Shown here piece by piece: positions 2 to 63,955 of a stretch of 64,000 bases of DNA. Every line of letters begins with the position of its first letter. Positions within the stretch are counted from its first letter, which is position 1. The position numbers were made by a program, and so were the translations under genes. The DNA is from a virus. The DNA is taken from UHGV virus genome UHGV-0171787; one strand, given 5' to 3'. The notes under the pieces are model-generated. The model was not told the DNA's origin, did no database searches, and saw only the letters and a program-made list of their open reading frames with translations.

Positions 2-1960
2 TCTGATGCTGCTGATGTAGCAACTAAACTAGTTAACCAAATTCTTCTGCGTGATAATCCGGGATATAATATTATCTCTTCTGCTGCACAAGAATGTCTG
101 GTTACTCGTAACTCTTTTATCAAATATTATTGGGATGAGCAAACTTCTACTCAAACTGAAGAGGCTGAAGGTGTACCACCGGAAGCATTGGCTGCATATG
201 TTCAGGGATTAGAAGCTGGTGGACTCAAGAATCTGGAAATCTTCACTGAAGAAAATGAAGATGGTACAGTAGATGTTAAAGTTACTTACGAACAAACTGT
301 TAAACGTGTGAAAGTTGAATATGTTCCTTCAGAGCAAATCTTTGTTGATGAACATGCTACCTCTTTTGCAGATGCACAATACTTCTGTCATCGTGTACGT
401 CGTTCTAAAGAAGATCTGGTTGCTATGGGCTTCCCTAAAGATGAGATTGAAGCATTCAACGACTGGACAGATACGATGGATACCACTCAATCTACAGTTG
501 CTTGGTCTCGTACTGACTGGCGTCAGGATATTGATGCTGATATTGGCACAGATACCGAAGATATTGCTTCTATGGTTTGGGTTTATGAGCACTACATTCG
601 TACAGGTGTTCTAGATAAGAATAAAGAGTCTAAACTCTATCAGGTTATTCAAGCTGGTGAGCATATCCTTCACACTGAAGAAGTAACTCACATTCCGTTT
701 GTAACCTTCTGCCCATATCCTATTCCGGGTTCCTTCTATGGTCAATCGGTCTATGACATTACGAAAGATATTCAAGATTTACGTACCGCGTTAGTTCGTG
801 GTTATATCGATAACGTCAACAATGCTAACTATGGTCGATACAAAGCTCTTGTTGGTGCATATGATCGTCGCTCTCTGCTTGATAACCGTCCCGGTGGAGT
901 GGTTGAAATGGAACGTCAGGACGCTATTGACCTGTTCCCATACCATAACCTACCTCAAGGTATTGATGGCCTCCTAGGTATGTCTGAGGAGCTTAAAGAG
1001 ACACGTACAGGTGTAACCAAACTAGGTATGGGTATCAACCCTGATGTGTTTAAGAATGATAACGCTTATGCAACCGTAGGCTTGATGATGAATGCTGCAC
1101 AGAACCGTCTCCGTATGGTATGTCGTAACATTGCTCACAATGGTATGGTTGAATTGATGCGTGGTATTTACAGCCTTATCAGAGAAAATGGTGAAGTTCC
1201 TATCGAGGTACAAACCCCTCGTGGTATGGTTCAGGTTAATCCGAAACAATTACCAGCTCGTCACAATCTTCAAGTTGTTGTAGCTATCTCCCCTAATGAG
1301 AAAGCAGAACGTGCACAGAAACTGATTAGCTTGAAACAGCTGATTGCAGCAGATGCACAGTTAGCACCTCTCTTTGGTTTGGAGCAAGACCGTTACATGA
1401 CTGCACAGATCTTTGAGTTGATGGGTATTAAAGATACACATAAATACCTTCTGCCTCTGGAACAATATCAGCCTCCAGAACCTTCTCCGATGGAAATCCT
1501 CCAGCTCGAGATGACTAAAGCACAGGTTGAGAACGTACAGGCTTCTTCTCAGAAGATGATTGCTGATGCATTCGACCAACGTGAACGTACTACATTCGAA
1601 CAGCAGAAAGCTGCGGATGAATTAAGTCTGCGTCAGGAAGAGTTGCAGTTCAAGCAAGAAAATGCAGCAGATGCAATGACTCTGGAAAACCGTAAAGAAG
1701 ATAACAATGCTACTCTGGAACAAGCTAAGCACAAGTTAGCTCTTATGCAACAGCAGGTCCGTCAGTATGAATCTGTACTAAAAGAGTTGCAGATGGTTAT
1801 GTCTCATCAGGTTGACCAAGAGAAGCTTAATGAACAATCACGCATTCAAAACAAGACTTTGGAACTCCAAAAGAAAGAAGCTAATGTAACTAAGAAAGAG
1901 CAACAAACTTCTCTCAAAGATTCACGGATTCAAGGCAAACGTCTTGGAAGTAAAAAGTAA
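2..1960 (+). CDS. portal protein (5' end lies outside the window)
   Basis: The reading frame is open from position 2 into the listed ORF 188..1960. Large protein directly upstream of scaffold and capsid genes, with a long Q/E-rich helical C-terminal region as in podovirus portals. Confidence 0.7.
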   Translation, partial: SDAADVATKLVNQILLRDNPGYNIISSAAQECLVTRNSFIKYYWDEQTSTQTEEAEGVPPEALAAYVQGLEAGGLKNLEIFTEENEDGTVDVKVTYEQTVKRVKVEYVPSEQIFVDEHATSFADAQYFCHRVRRSKEDLVAMGFPKDEIEAFNDWTDTMDTTQSTVAWSRTDWRQDIDADIGTDTEDIASMVWVYEHYIRTGVLDKNKESKLYQVIQAGEHILHTEEVTHIPFVTFCPYPIPGSFYGQSVYDITKDIQDLRTALVRGYIDNVNNANYGRYKALVGAYDRRSLLDNRPGGVVEMERQDAIDLFPYHNLPQGIDGLLGMSEELKETRTGVTKLGMGINPDVFKNDNAYATVGLMMNAAQNRLRMVCRNIAHNGMVELMRGIYSLIRENGEVPIEVQTPRGMVQVNPKQLPARHNLQVVVAISPNEKAERAQKLISLKQLIAADAQLAPLFGLEQDRYMTAQIFELMGIKDTHKYLLPLEQYQPPEPSPMEILQLEMTKAQVENVQASSQKMIADAFDQRERTTFEQQKAADELSLRQEELQFKQENAADAMTLENRKEDNNATLEQAKHKLALMQQQVRQYESVLKELQMVMSHQVDQEKLNEQSRIQNKTLELQKKEANVTKKEQQTSLKDSRIQGKRLGSKK

Positions 1961-1969
1961 GGACGTCGA

Positions 1970-2206
1970 ATGAACATTAGGCATCAATTCAATAAAGAGC
2001 ACGCCGCCGCTTTGGCGGCTCTCAATCTTAACGGCAGTCTTGACGCAGCATTAGAGGCATTGAAAGAAAGACTCATGACCGAGATAGTTCAAACTGAACC
2101 TCATGAGAATAAGAAACGCGAAGATTGTTATCAAAAGTATAAAATGGTGGGTAGCTTAAAAGAGGTCATAAAAGCTGCTATCAATAGTGCAGGAGATGTT
2201 TCATAA
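1970..2206 (+). CDS. hypothetical small protein between portal and scaffold
   Basis: 78-aa ORF, same strand, tightly packed; its stop overlaps the next start. Confidence 0.45.
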   Translation: MNIRHQFNKEHAAALAALNLNGSLDAALEALKERLMTEIVQTEPHENKKREDCYQKYKMVGSLKEVIKAAINSAGDVS

Positions 2207-3282
2207 TGCCACAAGATAATTATATTGACCCGAACGATTTTAAATCTTTCCTCCAACTGGATGACCTGAAAGGTTCTTTCAAAGAAGAACTCGGTCGATT
2301 AGAATCTGAACAAGAGCCAGAAGTGGACATTGACGATGAGTTCCCGGAAAAAGACGGTGACGATTTCGACTTTGATACCGACCTTCTCGGTGAAAGCGAT
2401 GAGCTTAAGTTCGAAGATGAAGATGGTTGGGAAGATCATGATGAGGAAGGCGAAGTCGAAGAAGATGAAGATGAATCCTCTGAAGCAGAAGAGCAAGAGG
2501 AAGAAGATTCAAGTGATGCAGGGTATGAAGATGATTCTGCTGACGGTGAAGGTGAAGTCTTTGATGTAGACTACGAAACCGTTATCACCCTTCCTGATGG
2601 ACGTGAGATGACTATTGAAGAACTTTCTAATGGCTATCTTACTGGTGCTGATATGACAGAACGAGAATCAACTCTTCAGCGTCATATGGAAGCATTTGAG
2701 GAACGTGTAGTAGGTTTGAAGGATGTATTAGAATTAGCGTCTTTAGAAGCAGACCGAGTAATTGAAGATTACAATGGTTTTGATTGGGACAAGCTTGCAG
2801 TAGAAGATCCTCAAGCATATGTTGAAAACAAACGTTTCCTAGAGAAGTACACAGCTCGTCGTAACCAGCTTGAACAGGCTCAAGTCCGTATTAAGCAGGA
2901 AGCAGCAGCTAAAGAGCAGGAAGCTTTCCAAGCCAAGAGTGTTGAGTGCGTTAATATTCTGAAACGTGAGATTCCAAATTGGGATGAAAACTTATATCAA
3001 AACTTAATGCAATATGCAATTGACTTAGGTGCTACTGAAGAAGAAATATTGAAGGAAAACCGTCCGTCTATTTTCCTAGCTCTCCACAAAGCATACCAAT
3101 TTGATAAAGGTAAGCAGCAGGTGATGGCTAAGATTAAACGTCCCGGTGCTCCACGCAAGGTTGTGAAGTCTGATGCTGCAAAGTCTCGTACTTCCAATAA
3201 GCCCGACAACGCTAAGGTTGCCAAGGCATTCGCAGAGGGTCGCGTTAGTCACGAAGACGCATTCAAATTCCTCGTAGATTAA
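2206..3282 (+). CDS. putative scaffolding protein
   Basis: 358 aa with a very acidic D/E-rich N-terminal half and a helical C-terminal half; sits between portal and major capsid genes. Confidence 0.55.
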   Translation: MPQDNYIDPNDFKSFLQLDDLKGSFKEELGRLESEQEPEVDIDDEFPEKDGDDFDFDTDLLGESDELKFEDEDGWEDHDEEGEVEEDEDESSEAEEQEEEDSSDAGYEDDSADGEGEVFDVDYETVITLPDGREMTIEELSNGYLTGADMTERESTLQRHMEAFEERVVGLKDVLELASLEADRVIEDYNGFDWDKLAVEDPQAYVENKRFLEKYTARRNQLEQAQVRIKQEAAAKEQEAFQAKSVECVNILKREIPNWDENLYQNLMQYAIDLGATEEEILKENRPSIFLALHKAYQFDKGKQQVMAKIKRPGAPRKVVKSDAAKSRTSNKPDNAKVAKAFAEGRVSHEDAFKFLVD

Positions 3283-3322
3283 TCGACAAATTAATTATTA
3301 ATAGTATAGGAGCTAATATAAC

Positions 3323-4384
3323 ATGGCTAGTCCAACTTTATTTGTATCGTATGACCAGAATGGTAAAAAACTTTCTTTTGCTAACTGGATTTCTGTTCTG
3401 TCCCCTCAGGATACCCCGTTCGTATCTATGACCGGTAAAGAGTCTATCAACCAGACTATCTTTAGCTGGCAGACCGATGCACTGGCAAGCGTTGACGGTA
3501 ATAACGCACACGTCGAAGGCTCTCGTGCTGAAGACGGCGAAATGAAACCGACTGTTATCAAATCTAACGTTACTCAGATTCTGCGTAAGGTTGTTCGTGT
3601 TTCTGATACTGCTAACACCACCGCTAACTACGGTCGTGGTCGTGAACTGATGTATCAGCTGGAGAAGAAAGGTAAAGAGATCAAGCGTGACCTCGAGAAA
3701 ATCCTTCTGTCCGGTCAGGCTCGTACCGACGTTCTGGCTGACCAGTACCTGACTAACTCTGCAACTGATCCTGCTGTTGTTGGTCTGAATGACACCCATA
3801 CAGCTCGTAAGACTGGTGCATTCCAGTTCCTGTGTGCTCACGGTGGTCTGGCTGGTGGTGTTGTTGACAAGACCAAGAATGGTCCTGCTGACCCGGATAC
3901 TGGTGCAATCACTGTTAAAGTTGCACAGAATGCTTCTAACCCGACCACTAACATTGGTTTCGACGAAGCTGATATCTTTGATATGACTCTGCAACTGTAT
4001 ACCGCTGGTTCTGAAGCAGATATCATCATGATTAACCCGGCTCATGCTAAGATCTTCGCTGGTCTGCAAGAAAATACTCAGGGTTCACGTAAGCGTATCT
4101 TTGAGAACACCAAGCAGTTCATCTACGAAGTTAACAGCATCACTGACCCGCTGGGCCAGAGCTACAAAATCATCGTTAACCGTTGGATGCCTACCGATGC
4201 AGTTTACTTCTTCCGTAGCGCTGACTGGACTCAGATGGTTCTGCGTGCTCCGAAACGTACTGAACTGGCTAAAGATGGTTCTTATGAGAAATGGATGATT
4301 GAAATGGAAGTTGGTCTGCGTCACCGCAACCCGTATGCTTCCGGCGTTCTGTTCACTGCTGCGGGAAAGGTAGCGGCGGCGTAA
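3323..4384 (+). CDS. major capsid protein (zero-frame product)
   Basis: 353-aa ORF after the scaffold gene with a good RBS context (aggagctaatataacATG); canonical capsid position. Confidence 0.75.
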   Translation: MASPTLFVSYDQNGKKLSFANWISVLSPQDTPFVSMTGKESINQTIFSWQTDALASVDGNNAHVEGSRAEDGEMKPTVIKSNVTQILRKVVRVSDTANTTANYGRGRELMYQLEKKGKEIKRDLEKILLSGQARTDVLADQYLTNSATDPAVVGLNDTHTARKTGAFQFLCAHGGLAGGVVDKTKNGPADPDTGAITVKVAQNASNPTTNIGFDEADIFDMTLQLYTAGSEADIIMINPAHAKIFAGLQENTQGSRKRIFENTKQFIYEVNSITDPLGQSYKIIVNRWMPTDAVYFFRSADWTQMVLRAPKRTELAKDGSYEKWMIEMEVGLRHRNPYASGVLFTAAGKVAAA

Positions 4385-40079: not shown

Positions 40080-40332
40080 CAATAATTCAATGAAGGACGC
40101 AACTCCTTCACCCGTAGCATTATATCTACTGCCCGTGGTTTCCCACGGGATTGGACTATATCATCACTCCTATTAAGGAGGCTAGGCGCTTCCACTAGCA
40201 TTAGCTTCTAGTGTACTCCTTTCGGATAGTCTCTGCACTTTCTAGGATGTATCCTAGCTTAGCTCAGGATTGGCATATCTTTCGACTTAGCTTTCCCTGA
40301 ATTCACCTAGTTTTACTTCGGCCATTGTGTTA
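40080..40332 (-). ncRNA. group I self-splicing intron (ORF-less, 253 nt) in the primase-helicase gene
   Basis: Intron RNA starts with UAA after an exon-terminal U and ends in G. P1: exon CUUCGGU pairs with intron GCCGAAG with U-G at the splice site. Conserved R element GUGCAGAGACUA (plus 40227-40238) and S element GAUAUAGUCC (plus 40153-40162). Confidence 0.75.
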
Positions 40333-55530: not shown

Positions 55531-55584
55531 TTTTAGCTTCCTCTTGTTAGTTTAAGTAAGAGTTGTCCCTTAATTAAAACAACA

Positions 55585-55612
55585 AAGGCCACCCGATTGG
55601 GCAGCCTTTTTA
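55585..55612 (-). terminator. rho-independent terminator
   Basis: Minus strand AAAGGCUGCCC-AAUC-GGGUGGCCUUU followed by a U-rich tract; related to the hairpin at 32905..32938. Confidence 0.5.
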
Positions 55613-57427: not shown

Positions 57428-57666
57428 ATTATTCTCCTTCTTCGTAGTTAAGAAATAATCTCGTTTTACAGGCATAAAAAAGCCCCAGCCGTAGCCGGGG
57501 CAAACCTGAAAGCAACACATGACCGTTGCTATAAATACACTCGCAAATGCACTTACAGCAACGCAAAAAGCCGCTCAAAGGCGGCTATGCGGAAGCTTCA
57601 AATGGGGAGAGGGCACGACGCTACAGAAAGAGCGTCACAGTACTAAAAGAGGGGGCTATATTCCTA

Positions 57667-58874: not shown

Positions 58875-58912
58875 ATAAAAGAAAAGGCGCTACCCGTTAA
58901 GATAGCGCCTTA
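58875..58912 (-). terminator. terminator after gene 58934..59842
   Basis: Perfect inverted repeat AGGCGCTA...TAGCGCCT flanked by A/T-runs. Confidence 0.5.
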
Positions 58913-58933: not shown

Positions 58934-59842
58934 TTATGCTGCCTGACGTGCTGCCATAATTTCAGCCGCTTTGCGCAGTACTTCTTCCTCTTCTGCTTTC
59001 GCAGCTTGCTCGGTACGAGTAGCAACCGTTGAAGAGATACGACCGCGCAGACTTTCTAACTTCTCCTGCATAGCTGCAACAGCCTTTTCCATTTCATCAG
59101 CGTATGAATCAAGTGATTCCAATTCCTTGCTTGATGCGTTCATCAGGTAGTCATCAGAGATTGCTACCGTTGAGGCCGTGACTTTCTTGATGAGTGAATC
59201 AAAGGACTTTTTAACTTTGCCGACTTCTTCGCTCAGGGCAATAGTGTTATCACTAGTTGCGCCGTTGCGCTCATCAGCTAGTAATTTAGCTTCAATACGG
59301 ATTGCATTCAAGCGTTCAACCAAAGCGTAAATATCTTGGTTAAAATCTTCCTTGTTTTTCGCCGGGATTTGCAGGTGTGCCGCTACGTTGTCGTTGCAAC
59401 CTTTGTAGAAGTTAGGATTATCAACTTCAATTTCACGACCTAAAGCAAAGTTTTCGAAAGCGTTTGACCAGCGAGCGCGGTTTTGTTCCATTTTGGTCTT
59501 AATCTGCGCTTCTTTCGCATCTTCTTTCGCTTTCGCTTCACCTTCCAGATTAATCCACTTTTTACGACCATTTGCCGCATCGGTGTTAAACTTGATAGGG
59601 GTTAAGAAAGTGATTGCGGTAGCAATAACATCCATATCGCGGAAGCGTTCAGTTAACAGGAAATCAACCGCCGTCTGTAATACGTCCAGTTTCTTACCGT
59701 TGCTGCGGAAGTGCTGCAAATGACCTAACAGGAAGTTAGAAACATCTTGTTTGATCGCCGCGTTATTGCTACGAATGTTGTTAGCCAGAGCATTAAAACC
59801 GGATTCGTTAACCAGAGTAAAGATTTTAGCCATGATATTCAC
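58934..59842 (-). CDS. hypothetical protein; first gene after the ORF-free 59843-61446 region
   Basis: 302-aa helical, charged protein, bounded by the ORF-free region upstream and a terminator downstream. Confidence 0.5.
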   Translation of the reverse strand: MNIMAKIFTLVNESGFNALANNIRSNNAAIKQDVSNFLLGHLQHFRSNGKKLDVLQTAVDFLLTERFRDMDVIATAITFLTPIKFNTDAANGRKKWINLEGEAKAKEDAKEAQIKTKMEQNRARWSNAFENFALGREIEVDNPNFYKGCNDNVAAHLQIPAKNKEDFNQDIYALVERLNAIRIEAKLLADERNGATSDNTIALSEEVGKVKKSFDSLIKKVTASTVAISDDYLMNASSKELESLDSYADEMEKAVAAMQEKLESLRGRISSTVATRTEQAAKAEEEEVLRKAAEIMAARQAA

Positions 59843-60755
59843 CTTTCAATTGTAAGGGCACTTTGCCCCGCTCTCTATGAGCTTGCTTAAGTCACTATTA
59901 ACTTAACTCTAACCACTCACTATTAAGTAGTTATAGGTAAGTGGAGCGGTCTTATCAGGAATTAACCTTGCCGCTCCCTTATCCGTGATGTTTCATCTGG
60001 TATCTTTAATTAGTCGCTATAAACAAAGCCGACCTGATAGCGATGATCAATCATCACAATAAGGCAGTGCGTCCGACTCTAATTAGTTACGTTATTGTAA
60101 CCGTCGGCAATATCGTCTACTTTGCTTTCGCTCTCGCCTATCCTTTTGTATCAACTCTCAATCGCTAGTCATCGCCCACTACGGGATACTATTGCGAAAG
60201 AGTCATTGACCGTCTAATATTCCGACGTTTTATATCTTTCAGCGAGTTTACTACATAAACCGACTATGTACTTTCATCATGAGATGAATCTCAAGCCGTT
60301 CACATTGTAAACGTTCACACTAAACCTTATTGTTAAATAGCAATTTGCCACTTTTTAACCACTCCCCGCCGCTCTCAATTGAGCGTTAATTCGTCGGACT
60401 TATCTACCCTGATTAACTTCTTTCACCGTAGCGCCTTGTTAGCGATGACCGCCGCTACCCTTAACCGTGGGCGATTAGCTTAAGTCGATGCGTGCACTCG
60501 ATGAATCTGCTTATCAGTGGTGATGTTTCCAGTAAGGGATTGTAAGGCTGTTTTCTCTGATAGTTTAGAGAGTCTTACACCGTTTTATCTGGTATGCTTT
60601 CCGATGGTTATTATCATCAAGCATATTCAACCGATATAGGAGAACGTTTAAATTGTTAAAGAGCGGTAAATCTATCAGCGCGCTTTCTCACGCTATGCAA
60701 CTGTTAGCCGTTGTTACGCTATTCACTGAAGCGGTGATTTGCTTAAGTGATGCTC

Positions 60756-60784
60756 ATTATGAATCATGTTGTTTTAGCTGTCAA
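60756..60784 (-). promoter_or_regulatory. sigma-70-like promoter candidate (TTGACA, 17-nt spacer, CATAAT)
   Basis: Plus-strand tgtcaa at 60779-60784 and attatg at 60756-60761 read on the minus strand as TTGACA-17-CATAAT; two similar TTGACA elements lie at 60936-60941 and 61083-61088. Confidence 0.35.
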
Positions 60785-61446
60785 CCACTTTTTTAATCTT
60801 TTTCGTCGTTCCCGTTATTGGGAGGATATACCAATCAGCTTTATTCGATTGGAGATTAAGCGGTAAGGCTTAACTTATGATTCATATTTTTAAAGAGCGG
60901 TTACTACATTCACAGCTTAACACATCGTGTTAGCTTGTCAACTCTTTTTATCATCTTCTTTGAATTCCTTTCCCTTATCTCGCGTGAATCTCTGCGAAAG
61001 GGCAAGATGATAAGTTTTTAAAGAGCAATTGCAAGTTTCCTTGCTTTGTTTCTGATACCCATCTTACTACATTTGGGCATCTTGTCAATCTTTTTATTTC
61101 TTATCGATTACCTGTTTTTCGTACGACTTATCAGGTTGTCTACTTGGCACTGCTTAACCGATGAATAGATAATAGTGGAAGTGAGGGAGGAAAGCAACAC
61201 TTATTTTGATTATTTTCAGGGAAGGAAGATATAAAAGAACGCGCACGCGAATAACATACTAAAACAGGCTTGTAAAGCACTAGTTGACGCTCTCAGACGC
61301 ATCACAACGAGCTAAAAGGAAGTAAGGCATACAATCACCTTATAAAAGAGAAAAGCCTCACTAGGAGGCTTACAGGAAGGATTAGAGAATCAGATAGATT
61401 ATGACCATAGGCATGACTACGGCACAATACAGGAGAAAGATTAAGC

Positions 61447-61812
61447 CTATGGATTTACACATTGACCGTTGCCGGATTTTATTTCGTTCATAGACTCGTC
61501 AAAGAGCGTCAACGACGAGCGCAACAAGTGATCGACCGTAATTTGTTTGCCAGTGGTTTCGTTAGTCATATAGATAGACTTGTCATAGACTACAACACTC
61601 TCAAAATCTTCTACATGTAAAATAATAACTTTAGGTGACTGTTTACCAGTTTCATAATCTTCTATCAAATAGGTGCACTGTAGACCTTCGATAGTATCAG
61701 GTGTGAACGTTGCAGCCTTCACACTACCCATAGACGATAGCAGGACACCTAACAGGAGAACAACAAGGAAGAAGCCTACAACCGTTTTAACGACGAATTT
61801 AATAAACCACAT
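61447..61812 (-). CDS. membrane-anchored or secreted protein
   Basis: N-terminal hydrophobic segment FLVVLLLGVLLSSMGSVKA. Confidence 0.45.
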   Translation of the reverse strand: MWFIKFVVKTVVGFFLVVLLLGVLLSSMGSVKAATFTPDTIEGLQCTYLIEDYETGKQSPKVIILHVEDFESVVVYDKSIYMTNETTGKQITVDHLLRSSLTLFDESMNEIKSGNGQCVNP

Positions 61813-62606: not shown

Positions 62607-62675
62607 TGTCTTGATTCCTTTAGTGTTGTCTTGATGAGGTAATAATACTGCCAATCAATAACCGTGTCAACAACT

Positions 62676-63152
62676 TTATTTTGCTTTAACACAATCACCC
62701 ATCTGGAAGCGGAACGTCCAGATACTATTATCAGCAGCATAGACGGAAGTGGCTAACATGGTTTCTTGCATTGTGCCATACGTTACCAGATTAGTCACAA
62801 CTTTAGAGCCTTTGATAGTCTGCACATCGCCAAAGGTAATCAACTCAGGGTCATTGTCTTTGCGAGAAAGGAGAATATCCTCATTGTTCTGATTGTCAAG
62901 TGTATGAGTAGACAGCACCATACCACGATTGGTTACGTTAGATAACTTAACCTTCATCAACGTAGTGACATTATCTGAATCCAACCCTTTACAAACCATC
63001 CAACCTTTAGGAGCGTTGCTAACGAATGTATCAGCAGCATCATTCACAACTACAGCAGCTTGAGCAACTGGAGCACTAGCAATCTTGTCAGCGATAGCCA
63101 TGCTACCGAAGGTTAATATCAGAGCACCGATTACAAAGTTTGACTTAGTCAT
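62676..63152 (-). CDS. secreted / periplasmic protein
   Basis: N-terminal signal peptide (MTKSNFVIGALILTFGSMAIA...). Confidence 0.5.
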   Translation of the reverse strand: MTKSNFVIGALILTFGSMAIADKIASAPVAQAAVVVNDAADTFVSNAPKGWMVCKGLDSDNVTTLMKVKLSNVTNRGMVLSTHTLDNQNNEDILLSRKDNDPELITFGDVQTIKGSKVVTNLVTYGTMQETMLATSVYAADNSIWTFRFQMGDCVKAK

Positions 63153-63514
63153 GATTGATTCCTTTAGTTGGTATGCTTCGTTTCAATGAGATAACTATAC
63201 TTCTTACTACACAACAAGTCAACAACTAATTTTAATTCTTTTATGATTCACGATGTAGCCTGAGCAACCGCAGTTCTCAGAGAGCCATTACTCACTTGGC
63301 TTCTCCAGTGACCCGATAGTGTTCCAGCCTTAGCCAGTCAATCGCGGAGTCCTTACATCTAATCACTTTCCACTACTTAGGACGATTATCCTTCATGGAA
63401 CCTACTACTATCTAGCTACTTGGTATCGCTACTTCGCTTCGATGAATACAATTTACTACTTCTTACTAAGGAAAGCAAGCGCTACGGGTAAAATATTTCT
63501 ACTATCTATATAGG

Positions 63515-63955
63515 ACGGGGAGATAACAACCGCAGGACAGACCACGGGGAAGGGTAGCCAGATAGTGCGGTAATAATATACCACTTAAATAATTGTATAA
63601 CTCAAACATCAAAGACCGTTCGTACTACGTACTCACCATTCGCTACGCTCATGTACGCTGAAAAAGAAAGTAATAAAAGAATATAATAAACATCAAACAT
63701 AATCTTTCCACTTAATTAATACATACATCATTATTGCACTCATAATAACAACTATTGAAACTATTATCAACGTAACTATGGGGGCTTGTGACTGTTACTC
63801 ATGGGCATTATATCGCCTTAATCTATTGGTACAGTGGAAGACCATTATCAGTGCTAGCCTTTCATCCATTCAGTAAAGGGGAACTAAATAAACGGGTAGG
63901 TAATGAATAGGATGGTATACACGGGGAAAGAATAACGGGGAGTAGGCACGGGGAA
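63515..63955. repeat. cluster of short G-rich repeats (ACGGGGA) in an ORF-free region
   Basis: ACGGGGA(A/G) occurs at about 63515, 63544, 63921, 63936 and 63949. Confidence 0.5.

What the first reader, a model, noticed from the sequence alone, without database searches (positions are those of the whole stretch)
59843..61446. About 1.6 kb ORF-free region with three TTGACA promoter-like elements and a repeated GCTCTTTAAA motif
No ORF of 60 aa or more on either strand. Plus-strand tgtcaa (minus-strand TTGACA) occurs three times (60779-60784, 60936-60941, 61083-61088) with plausible -10 hexamers at 16-17 nt. Each is followed downstream on the minus strand by a CCGCTCTTTAA(A/C)A-type motif (plus-strand tttaaagagcgg at about 60654, 60890, 61016). 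This could be an early promoter cluster, untranslated RNAs or a replication origin.
Basis: seen in the sequence. Interest (0 to 1): 0.45.

Follow-up and report, generated by a model that had tools for sequence, protein, structure and literature searches.

The report
Phage early promoters, boxA signals, structured leader
This gene-free stretch of a phiEco32-like coliphage is its early transcription launch pad: three strong host-type promoters, each followed by the same 'boxA' anti-termination signal that E. coli uses on its ribosomal RNA operons, feeding into a conserved, heavily folded 0.8-kb untranslated RNA of unknown function.

Summary
The window is a phiEco32-like phage (Kuravirus). The gap lies between the homologues of phiEco32 genes 125 and 124, both on the minus strand.

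The three TTGACA elements are sigma-70 early promoters. Two correspond to promoters already published for SU10 and phiEco32. The third is a T7 A2-like cassette with a 37-nt, 94.6% match to T7.

The "GCTCTTTAAA" motif is boxA, the NusB/S10 site of rrn-type antitermination. All three copies fit the published consensus GYTCTTTAANA and are its only matches in 64 kb (0.43 expected). One copy shares 16 of 16 bases with the E. coli rrnH leader. In 33 related genomes, promoter–boxA cassettes recur 3-5 times.

Between the last boxA and the start codon lie about 820 nt with no conserved ORF. They fold into a multi-domain RNA: 238 pairs, 99% canonical, 73 pairs with compensatory changes against 30±3 in shuffles, and specific to the minus strand. 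The RNA has no Rfam match. It is recognisable in relatives whose gene-124 protein is about 70% identical; the layout persists down to 47%.

No origin features were found. The promoters are known. I found the boxA reading and the structured leader RNA in no paper I could search; the RNA's function is unknown.

The parts
61344..61371 (-). Intrinsic terminator that ends the upstream (right-end) early operon after the gene-125 homologue: stem-loop 61371-61353, then a T-run.
   Evidence: 7-bp stem, TTCTCTTTTA tail. The homologous element is annotated or listed as a terminator in SU10.
61109..61145 (-). 37-nt segment 94.6% identical to T7 552-588, the stretch just upstream of T7 promoter A2. It marks P1 as a T7-like promoter cassette.
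   Evidence: Among the loci fetched, only the window and metagenome contig L020 carry it.
61061..61099 (-). Promoter P1: A-tract AAATAAAAAGA 61099-61089, -35 TTGACA 61088-61083, 16-nt spacer, -10 TAAGAT 61066-61061. Predicted start near 61054.
   Evidence: 19/23 identity to the T7 A3 -35 region and 11/12 to the T7 A2 -10 region.
61031..61044 (-). Short hairpin GCAAG-GAAA-CUUGC, 4 nt upstream of boxA-1, in the position that boxB occupies in rrn leaders.
61015..61026 (-). boxA-1: (T)GCTCTTTAAAAA, about +28 from the predicted P1 start.
   Evidence: Fits GYTCTTTAANA.
60948..61013 (-). Long hairpin between boxA-1 and P2, closed by the inverted repeat CUUAUCAUCUU / AAGAUGAUAA.
   Evidence: I15; MFE -26.4 kcal/mol, z -2.9 for the 115-nt P1 transcript segment.
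60914..60955 (-). Promoter P2: A-tract 60955-60942, -35 TTGACA 60941-60936, 16-nt spacer ending in TGT (extended -10), -10 TAAGCT 60919-60914. Predicted start near 60907.
   Evidence: One base differs over 35 nt from the SU10 promoter listed at 73668.
60887..60898 (-). boxA-2: (C)GCTCTTTAAAAA, about +9 from the predicted P2 start.
   Evidence: Conserved at about -1065 in all relatives.
60756..60804 (-). Promoter P3: A-tract GAAAAAGATTAAAAAAGTGG 60804-60785, -35 TTGACA 60784-60779, 17-nt spacer, -10 CATAAT 60761-60756. Predicted start near 60749.
   Evidence: 11/12. Present in all full-length related loci. Matches the SU10 promoter listed at 73511.
60677..60713 (-). Two hairpins 5' of boxA-3: H1 60713-60698 and H2 60694-60677 (AGCGUG-AGAAAG-CGCGCU). 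H2 lies where boxB lies in rrn leaders.
   Evidence: H2: 3 of 6 pairs with compensatory changes, 100% paired. Compared with rrnH.
60653..60664 (-). boxA-3: (C)GCTCTTTAACAA. GCTCTTTAACAATTTA (60664-60649) is identical to the E. coli rrnH leader over 16 nt. About +85 from the predicted P3 start.
   Evidence: 14/14 with T7 boxA. Invariant in 24 relatives apart from the consensus N position.
60354..60652 (-). Leader RNA domain I. It is closed by a long-range helix that starts right after boxA-3 (60652-60642 with 60364-60354). It holds hairpins 60636-60586 and 60578-60542, a 123-nt arm 60524-60402, and 60397-60366.
   Evidence: helices 4-18, several with compensatory changes.
60335..60353 (-). Hairpin H19 inside an invariant 27-nt block (60348-60322). 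It includes the boxA-like GCTATTTAACAA (60341-60330). That sequence is base-paired and has A at consensus position 4, so it is probably not a boxA.
60056..60333 (-). Leader RNA domain II. It is closed by 60333-60315 with 60074-60056 and holds nested helices. Its core, 60248-60131, was modelled as covariance model R1.
   Evidence: R1 finds the same element in relatives with about 70% gp124 identity (E 8e-33 to 9e-8).
59855..60057 (-). 3' part of the leader: hairpins 60034-60012, 59977-59943, 59936-59907, 59905-59888, 59882-59870 and 59869-59855. A covariation-supported helix pairs GUGAUG (60057-60052) with CAUCAC (59990-59985); it competes with the local hairpin 60055-60042.
   Evidence: these helices are 90-98% paired even in the distant relatives.
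59831..59845 (-). Shine-Dalgarno AAGGTG (59845-59840) and ATG (59833-59831) of the gene-124 homologue.
   Evidence: conserved in 24 relatives.
58934..59833 (-). First gene of the unit: homologue of phi32_124, 299 aa, function unknown.
   Evidence: phrog_13018, unknown function; no informative match.
58884..58911 (-). Strong intrinsic terminator-like hairpin (12-bp stem, T-run) immediately after gene 124.
   Evidence: A terminator is annotated at the homologous place in SU7.

Best explanation
The gap is the main early transcription control region of a phiEco32-like phage, read on the minus strand by the host sigma-70 RNA polymerase.

Three tandem strong promoters (P1, P2, P3), each with an A-rich UP-like tract, fire at the start of infection. 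Each transcript soon contains a consensus boxA. I infer that boxA is bound by host NusB-S10 and, together with NusA, NusG and SuhB, converts the polymerase into an rrn-type antitermination complex. That complex resists Rho and elongates faster. It would let the polymerase cross 0.9-1.2 kb of untranslated RNA and continue into gene 124 and the early genes beyond it.

The roughly 820 nt between boxA-3 and the start codon are not spacer. They form a conserved multi-domain structured RNA whose first long-range helix begins right at the 3' edge of boxA-3. As proposed for rRNA, the boxA-tethered complex may help the distant helix strands of this RNA find each other.

Shown here: the sequence elements, their conservation, their statistical excess, the strand-specific covariation, and the absence of coding or origin signals.

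Inferred, not shown: the transcription start sites, Nus-factor binding, antitermination, and the function of the leader RNA. For that function my best guess is a cis-acting 5' leader that stabilises, processes or controls the gene-124 mRNA. A trans-acting role is not excluded.
For: Identity of the phage and the gap.

Promoters:
- Searches give the hexamers and spacings.
- The SU10 paper describes three sigma-70 promoters in the homologous spacer, 'like phiEco32'.
- SU10 Table S2 lists sequences matching P2 and P3, and the terminator.

boxA:
- The published consensus is GYTCTTTAANA.
- It has three matches in the window, all on the minus strand within 373 bp; 0.43 are expected and 0 of 100 shuffles reach 3.
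- boxA-3 shares 16/16 bases with the rrnH leader and 14/14 with the T7 boxA downstream of A3.
- In 33 related genomes, 3-5 promoter-boxA cassettes recur. The flanks carry almost no information. Positions outside the search pattern agree with rrn boxA: position 12 is A in 82/83 contexts and position 13 is T in 71/83.
- Other strong promoter-like sites in the window (62670, 62899, 63222) are followed directly by genes and have no boxA.

Need for read-through: several intrinsic terminator-like hairpins follow on the minus strand, and no strong sigma-70 promoter-like site lies between them.

Leader RNA:
- No ORF of 30 aa or more on the sense strand; 84 stop codons across the three frames; the only conserved mini-ORF lacks a Shine-Dalgarno sequence and changes non-synonymously.
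- MFE -274 kcal/mol, z -5.8.
- Consensus structure of 238 pairs: 99.1% canonical, 73 pairs with compensatory changes against 30±3 in shuffles (0/500) and 5-10 in slid controls.
- 576 G·U cells against 20 A·C cells; the sense strand folds better than the antisense strand.
- The layout 'cassettes, then an 870-936-nt leader, then gene 124' holds in relatives down to 47% protein identity.
- The structure holds up in 32 sequences, and covariance model R1 gives hits in the ~70% group.
Against: Nothing here is experimental. Start sites, Nus binding and antitermination are inferred from sequence.

rrn-type complexes are known mainly to counter Rho-dependent termination, not strong intrinsic terminators (my own knowledge). 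boxA alone may therefore not explain read-through of the hairpin at 58911-58884.

No boxC-like GU-rich element follows any boxA (read).

P2 has a weak -10 hexamer (3/6).

A highly structured RNA with more G than C may be a poor Rho substrate anyway, so the need for boxA is not proven.

The leader's own function is unknown. The predicted pairing of the boxA-3 flank with the Shine-Dalgarno region has no covariation and is broken in TH34.

The two primary phiEco32 papers could not be read, so I cannot exclude that they already discuss boxA.
Confidence: 0.72

Rival explanations
1. The structured leader is the main product. It is a large trans-acting non-coding RNA, possibly released by processing and possibly acting with gp124, that works on host machinery during takeover. 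The promoters and boxA exist to make large amounts of it, rRNA-style.
For: The RNA's size, multi-domain fold and invariant unpaired blocks persist across deep divergence. Its biogenesis signals resemble those of rRNA. It is strictly linked to gene 124 in all relatives. A terminator follows directly after gene 124.
Against: There is no evidence of a discrete 3' end or processing site upstream of the Shine-Dalgarno sequence. No known RNA family matches. gp124 has no recognisable RNA-binding fold. A cis-acting leader explains the same data.
Confidence: 0.2
2. This is a lambda-like, phage-protein-dependent antitermination module. boxA plus leader hairpins would act as a nut-like site for a phage factor, for example gp124, in a pL-nutL-N-tL1-like layout. 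That factor would let polymerase pass the intrinsic terminators.
For: The layout is promoter, boxA, first gene, then a strong terminator, with further terminators and no strong promoters downstream. The authors of the paper on phage 7-11 suspected an undefined antitermination strategy in that relative.
Against: The boxA copies are full consensus, which by established knowledge binds NusB/S10 without N. No lambda boxB-like hairpin follows them. gp124 is acidic and helical, with no arginine-rich motif and no homology to N or Q. Phages 7-11 and GAP52 have no boxA at all.
Confidence: 0.08
3. The repeated motif is a DNA site for a host or phage DNA-binding protein that regulates the promoters, or simply a duplicated part of promoter cassettes. 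It would have no RNA-level role.
For: The cassettes look like duplicated and exchanged modules, so a hitch-hiking sequence could be repeated.
Against: The core stays invariant while its distance to the promoter ranges from about +9 to +150 and its flanks are randomised. It is always on the transcribed strand downstream of a promoter. It is identical to rrn and T7 boxA beyond the core. The same promoter-hairpin-boxA pattern recurs in unrelated phages.
Confidence: 0.05
4. The gap is a replication origin, or it hides small protein genes.
For: It is a long non-coding stretch. Some database records annotate 5-11 tiny ORFs here.
Against: There are no DnaA boxes in the region, no iterons and no AT-rich dip or skew switch. 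Compensatory, strand-specific substitutions point to RNA. The annotated mini-ORFs are mostly on the non-transcribed strand and are not conserved. The one conserved sense mini-ORF has no Shine-Dalgarno sequence and shows non-synonymous, helix-preserving changes.
Confidence: 0.03

Closest known systems
E. coli rrn operon leader (tandem P1/P2 promoters, boxB-boxA-boxC, Nus/SuhB antitermination complex)
   Same: Both have tandem strong sigma-70 promoters with A-rich upstream tracts. boxA-3 is identical to rrnH over 16 nt (GCTCTTTAACAATTTA). A hairpin sits just 5' of boxA. A long untranslated, highly structured RNA follows, whose long-range helices start next to boxA.
   Different: The product is not rRNA and ends in a protein gene. 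No boxC-like GU-rich element is present. There is one boxA per promoter (three in a row) instead of one per operon. Nus binding is untested.
Phage T7 early control region (promoters A1, A2, A3, boxA, RNase III site R0.3, gene 0.3)
   Same: Both have three tandem host-polymerase promoters pointing inward near a genome end, a consensus boxA (CGCTCTTTAACAAT, 14/14 with boxA-3), and then the first early gene. There is direct sequence homology: 37 nt at 94.6% upstream of A2, plus A2/A3-like hexamer regions.
   Different: T7 has a single boxA after A3 and only about 100 nt between boxA and gene 0.3. Here each promoter has its own boxA, and about 820 nt of structured RNA precede the gene. The two phages are otherwise unrelated.
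Published early promoters of phiEco32 and SU10 in the spacer between genes 124/125 (SU10 CDS120/121)
   Same: P2, P3 and the upstream terminator are the homologues of the listed SU10 elements. The region is 92% identical to phiEco32.
   Different: The window's P1 is a different, T7-like cassette. No paper I could search that mentions phiEco32, Kuravirus or SU10 also mentions boxA, and the SU10 paper's description of the spacer covers only promoters and a terminator. The primary phiEco32 papers were not readable.
Lambda nutL/nutR with the N protein
   Same: boxA lies in the early transcript just downstream of the early promoters. The first gene is followed by a terminator.
   Different: Lambda's boxA is a weak variant that needs N and the boxB hairpin (established knowledge). 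Here boxA is full consensus. No boxB-like hairpin and no N homologue were found.
Large structured non-coding RNAs carried by phages (for example GOLLD, ROOL)
   Same: The leader is a large, multi-domain, covariation-supported RNA carried by a phage.
   Different: It matches no Rfam family. It is a 5' leader fused to an mRNA, not a free-standing gene. It is restricted to Gordonclarkvirinae-like phages.

Membership tests
Sigma-70 promoter (strong, UP-element type) | -35 TTGACA-like and -10 TATAAT-like hexamers separated by 16-18 nt | tested here: met
   P1 scores 10/12 and P3 11/12. P2 has a perfect -35, a 3/6 -10 and an extended -10 TGn.
Sigma-70 promoter (strong, UP-element type) | A/T-rich UP-like tract upstream of the -35 hexamer | tested here: met
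   16-18 of the 22 upstream bases are A/T in the window and in relatives.
Sigma-70 promoter (strong, UP-element type) | Mapped transcription start site and dependence on sigma-70 holoenzyme | not testable with these tools
   Only indirect evidence: the SU10 paper states that phiEco32 has three such promoters in this spacer. The primary paper was not readable.
boxA (NusB/S10 binding element) | Match to the gamma-proteobacterial consensus GYTCTTTAANA | tested here: met
   Three of three copies match. They are the only matches in 64 kb, with 0.43 expected.
boxA (NusB/S10 binding element) | Located in the transcript, sense strand, downstream of a promoter | tested here: met
   All copies lie on the minus strand, about 9-85 nt after the predicted start sites. 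The start sites themselves are predicted, not mapped.
boxA (NusB/S10 binding element) | Selective conservation of the element relative to its flanks | tested here: met
   Across 83 distinct contexts from 33 genomes the flanks carry about 0-0.3 bits. Positions 12 and 13, which the search pattern does not fix, are A in 82/83 and T in 71/83, as in rrn.
boxA (NusB/S10 binding element) | Binds NusB-S10 and confers resistance to Rho-dependent termination | not testable with these tools
   Needs binding assays, or genetics with boxA or nus mutants.
rrn-type leader (boxB-boxA-boxC) | Hairpin (boxB) immediately 5' of boxA | tested here: met
   H2 (60694-60677) has compensatory changes. Hairpin 61044-61031 precedes boxA-1. 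No such hairpin precedes boxA-2.
rrn-type leader (boxB-boxA-boxC) | GU-rich boxC 3' of boxA | tested here: not met
   rrnH has ...CAATCTGTGTGGGCAC after boxA. Nothing similar follows any of the three copies.
Lambda-type nut site | boxB hairpin with a purine-rich pentaloop a few nt 3' of boxA, plus an N-like protein | tested here: inconclusive
   No such hairpin appears in the folds of the three cassettes. No N or Q family hit was found for neighbouring proteins. No dedicated search was run.
Any Rfam RNA family | Covariance-model match at or near the gathering score | tested here: not met
   No hit in the region at gathering threshold. The best E-value hits are 13-25 bits against cut-offs of 34-167.
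Replication origin | DnaA boxes or iterons, an AT-rich unwinding element, a skew switch | tested here: not met

The most novel reading that the evidence does not exclude
The 0.85-0.95-kb leader would be a previously undescribed family of large structured phage RNAs, made like an rRNA: from tandem strong promoters, with consensus boxA and Nus-complex-assisted folding of long-range helices. It would act as an RNA in its own right. For example, it could be a stable processed RNA or a gp124-containing RNP that sequesters or redirects host factors (Nus factors, ribosomal proteins, RNases) during takeover, rather than serving merely as a 5' UTR.
Probability: 0.2. Interest if true: 0.8.

Novelty: new variant of a known kind. 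Interest (0 to 1): 0.55.

Why it matters
It turns an unexplained motif into a testable mechanism. A virulent coliphage appears to borrow the host's rRNA antitermination signal for its very first transcripts, before any phage protein exists.

The same promoter-hairpin-boxA cassette turned up in many unrelated phage contigs. These include T7, Vibrio phage Vc1, where the cassettes lie beside an S-adenosylmethionine hydrolase gene, and the T5-like Proteus phage PM135. It may therefore be a general, under-described module of host-polymerase-dependent early transcription, exchanged between phage families.

It also identifies a large, deeply conserved, covariation-supported RNA with no Rfam family. 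This RNA lies in a phage group whose molecular biology is little studied and which is used in phage therapy work. Several GenBank records currently annotate the stretch with spurious mini-ORFs.

Tried and rejected
- tRNA or tmRNA genes: none in the window.
- Rfam at gathering and E-value thresholds: nothing credible in the region.
- Reading the two primary phiEco32 papers: not held. A first literature search with loose terms was uninformative.
- Origin hypothesis: rejected.
- Promoters for the phage's own sigma factor (TAATGTATA): none in the region.
- Small ORFs in the leader: rejected.
- Predicted pairing of the boxA-3 flank with the Shine-Dalgarno region (helix 3): rejected for lack of covariation.
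- The fourth, boxA-like GCTATTTAACAA at 60341-60330: rejected as a boxA. It has A at position 4 and is buried in conserved helices.
- The more distant relatives 7-11 and GAP52: no boxA, so the module does not extend to the Grimontviridae.
- One collection scan was wasted on a pattern whose gap was too narrow. The corrected pattern found only the five known Gordonclarkvirinae contigs.
- gp124 function: Pfam, PHROGs and PDB sequence searches, an AlphaFold model (pLDDT 66.8, N-terminal half below 50) and Foldseek gave nothing usable.
- Covariance model R1 did not recover the roughly 48%-identity group, even with filters off. For that group only the shared layout and motif-level similarity support homology of the leader.
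Full report
**What the window is.** The region 59700-61600 is about 92% identical to Escherichia phage phiEco32 and about 60 other Kuravirus/Gordonclarkvirinae genomes. In phiEco32 the homologous gap lies between phi32_124 and phi32_125, both on the minus strand. Everything below is read on the minus strand.

**Checking the observation.**
- No ORF of 60 aa or more lies in 59843-61446. The downstream gene most likely starts at ATG 59833 (900 bp, as in phi32_124, with an AAAGGTGA Shine-Dalgarno sequence), so the gap is 59834-61446.
P1 pairs with TAAGAT at 16 nt and P3 with CATAAT at 17 nt. P2 pairs with a weak TAAGCT at 16 nt, preceded by a TGn extended -10.
- TTGACA alone is not enriched in the window (41 found, 50.8 expected). 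The evidence that the three sites are promoters is their common strand, their A-rich upstream tracts, their conservation, and the literature.
- The 10-mer motif is at the stated positions.

**The promoters are already known in relatives.** The SU10 genome paper states that, "like phage phiEco32", there are three sigma-70 promoters in the spacer between the homologous genes, and a terminator after the upstream gene. Its Table S2 lists sequences that match the window's P2 (one base differs over 35 nt) and P3, and the terminator at 61371-61353. The two primary phiEco32 papers are not in the library.

**P1 is a T7-like cassette.** The window's P1 differs from the cassettes found in phiEco32 and SU10. 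A 37-nt segment just upstream of it (61145-61109) is 94.6% identical to T7 552-588, the stretch upstream of T7 promoter A2. The P1 hexamer regions resemble T7 A2 and A3. Among the loci I fetched, only one metagenomic contig shares this cassette. This points to exchange of promoter modules between unrelated podoviruses.

**The motif is boxA.**
- T7 carries CGCTCTTTAACAAT after A3.
- The E. coli rrnH leader reads CTGCTCTTTAACAATTTATCAG.
- The published consensus for gamma-proteobacteria is GYTCTTTAANA.
- All three copies in the window fit that consensus. They are its only matches in the 64-kb window on either strand, against 0.43 expected; 0 of 100 shuffles reach three.
- boxA-3 shares 16 of 16 bases with rrnH and 14 of 14 with T7.
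- In 24 close and 9 more distant relatives, the region upstream of the gene-124 homologue holds 3-5 cassettes of the form A-tract, TTGACA, 16-18 nt, TATAAT-like hexamer, then boxA some tens to about 150 nt downstream of the -35 hexamer.
- Over 83 distinct sequence contexts the flanks carry almost no information. Two positions that my search pattern did not fix agree with rrn boxA: position 12 is A in 82/83 and position 13 is T in 71/83.
- Short hairpins precede boxA-1 (61044-61031) and boxA-3 (60694-60677, with compensatory changes), where boxB sits in rrn leaders. No boxC-like element follows.
- Other strong promoter-like sites further right in the window (62670, 62899, 63222) are followed directly by genes and carry no boxA. 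This fits the idea that boxA is needed where a long untranslated RNA follows.

**The cassette is common in other phages.** My own rough estimate of the chance expectation is fewer than ten. Many of these loci show promoter, hairpin, boxA. Twenty-six of the 80 loci I examined carry 2-5 boxA matches, in most cases clustered on one strand. Two arrays map to Vibrio phage Vc1, beside an S-adenosylmethionine hydrolase gene, and to the T5-like Proteus phage PM135, next to its A2 gene. The cassette is therefore a widespread early-region module, not a Kuravirus peculiarity. Phages 7-11 and GAP52, distant relatives of phiEco32, lack it. No paper I could search mentions boxA together with phiEco32, Kuravirus or SU10.

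**The larger part of the gap is a structured RNA.** Between boxA-3 (60664-60653) and the ATG lie about 820 nt.
- There is no sense-strand ORF of 30 aa or more, and the three frames hold 84 stop codons.
- The transcript from P3 to the start codon (917 nt) folds far better than shuffles: -274 kcal/mol, z -5.8.
- An alignment of 24 distinct relatives gives a consensus of 238 pairs in 42 helices.
- 99.1% of cells are canonical pairs. 73 pairs show changes on both sides, against 30±3 in column shuffles (0 of 500) and 5-10 when partners are slid by 1-3 columns.
- The fold has two domains closed by long-range helices, plus a string of 3' hairpins. Domain I is 60652-60354 and starts at the 3' edge of boxA-3. 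Domain II is 60333-60056. The 3' hairpins run down to 59855.
- It belongs to the minus-strand transcript: 576 G·U cells against 20 A·C cells, and an alifold energy of -443.5 for the sense strand against -377.9 for the antisense strand.
- It has no Rfam match.

**The architecture is old.** Homologues of gp124 at 67-70% and 47-49% identity exist in metagenomic contigs. In every case the gene is preceded by 1-3 kb with almost no called gene. That stretch holds 2-3 promoter-boxA cassettes and a leader of 870-936 nt. Recognisable motifs persist. In a combined alignment of 32 leaders, 91.7% of cells in 261 pairs are canonical, against 38-44% in slid controls. 177 pairs carry compensatory changes, against 77-94. 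A covariance model of the domain II core (60248-60131) finds the ~70% group at E 8e-33 to 9e-8. It does not find the ~48% group.

**What I conclude, and what is inferred.** The sequence evidence supports a host-polymerase early control region built from tandem promoters, rrn-type boxA elements and a conserved structured leader. The following rest on the established behaviour of consensus boxA and are not tested here: that boxA recruits NusB-S10 and builds an rrn-like complex; that this protects transcription of the untranslated leader from Rho; and that the tethered complex helps long-range helices form.

Downstream on the minus strand there are intrinsic terminator-like hairpins at 58911-58884 (right after gene 124), 57586-57569, 57501-57482 and 55609-55584, with no strong sigma-70 promoter-like site between them. 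Some read-through mechanism therefore seems needed. rrn-type complexes are not known to be strong against intrinsic terminators, so an additional factor cannot be excluded; I list a lambda N-like scheme as a rival.

gp124 itself remains uncharacterised. The function of the leader RNA is unknown. My working guess is a cis-acting leader for stability, processing or translation control. The more novel alternative is a trans-acting RNA or RNP.

**Rejected alternatives.**
- Replication origin: no DnaA boxes in the region, no iterons, no composition break.
- Promoters for the phage sigma factor: none in the region.
- Small protein genes: the mini-ORFs annotated in two GenBank records are mostly on the wrong strand. 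The one conserved sense mini-ORF lacks a Shine-Dalgarno sequence and changes in a helix-preserving, non-synonymous way.

**Verdict.** The promoter cluster is already known in this phage group. I found the reading of the motif as boxA, and the recognition of a large conserved structured leader RNA, in no paper I could search. Overall this is a new variant of a known kind of system (rrn-, T7- or lambda-style Nus-dependent early transcription). It has one open element, the leader RNA, that deserves experiments.

Noticed in passing
window 40132-40342 (-): Rfam group I catalytic intron (RF00028) match: 86.3 bits against a 50-bit gathering score, full-length model. It probably interrupts a phage gene.
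   Followed up: no
window 62642-62670, 62872-62899, 63194-63222, 63742-63770 (-): Further strong sigma-70 promoter-like sites (10-11 of 12) in the right-end operon upstream of the gene-125 to gene-128 homologues. None is followed by a boxA, unlike the three in the finding.
   Followed up: partly
window 58884-58911, 57569-57586, 57482-57501, 55584-55609 (-): A series of intrinsic terminator-like hairpins inside the early gene block, with no strong sigma-70 promoter-like site between them. This implies substantial read-through or antitermination.
   Followed up: partly
window 61447-61812 (-): The 121-aa gene-125 homologue is labelled 'terminase' in GenBank records and in PHROGs (phrog_13168). 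It has no Pfam support and sits in the early region, so the label looks doubtful.
   Followed up: no
L002 (NC_070989.1) 1845-3435 and L027 (MZ234017.1) 1500-3170: Two GenBank records annotate 5-11 tiny 'hypothetical proteins' of 30-50 aa across this leader and promoter region, mostly on the non-transcribed strand. Given the RNA covariation, these look like spurious calls.
   Followed up: partly
L094 3569-4536 (Vibrio phage Vc1) and L090 5647-7034 (Proteus phage PM135): Tandem arrays of 4-5 consensus boxA elements, several of them behind TTGACA promoters, in unrelated phages. In Vc1 they lie beside an S-adenosylmethionine hydrolase gene; in PM135 they lie next to the A2 gene. This suggests a general early-region module.
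   Followed up: partly
window 60052-60057 with 59985-59990, versus the local hairpin 60042-60055: GUGAUG can pair either within the local hairpin GAUGAUUGAUCAUC or with the distant CAUCAC. Three relatives change to GUGGUG and CACCAC together, which supports the long-range pairing. The two folds are mutually exclusive, so a conformational switch is possible.
   Followed up: partly
window 60322-60348 (-): An invariant 27-nt block GCAAATTGCTATTTAACAATAAGGTTT is conserved in all 24 close relatives. It contains a boxA-like sequence with A at consensus position 4. It is base-paired in the consensus fold, so it is probably a structural or binding motif rather than a fourth boxA.
   Followed up: partly
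L154, L157 (Logan contigs of 96 and 87 kb): Relatives with about 70% gp124 identity sit on contigs 10-20 kb longer than Kuravirus genomes. This suggests an undescribed, larger-genome sister group that shares the same early control architecture.
   Followed up: no
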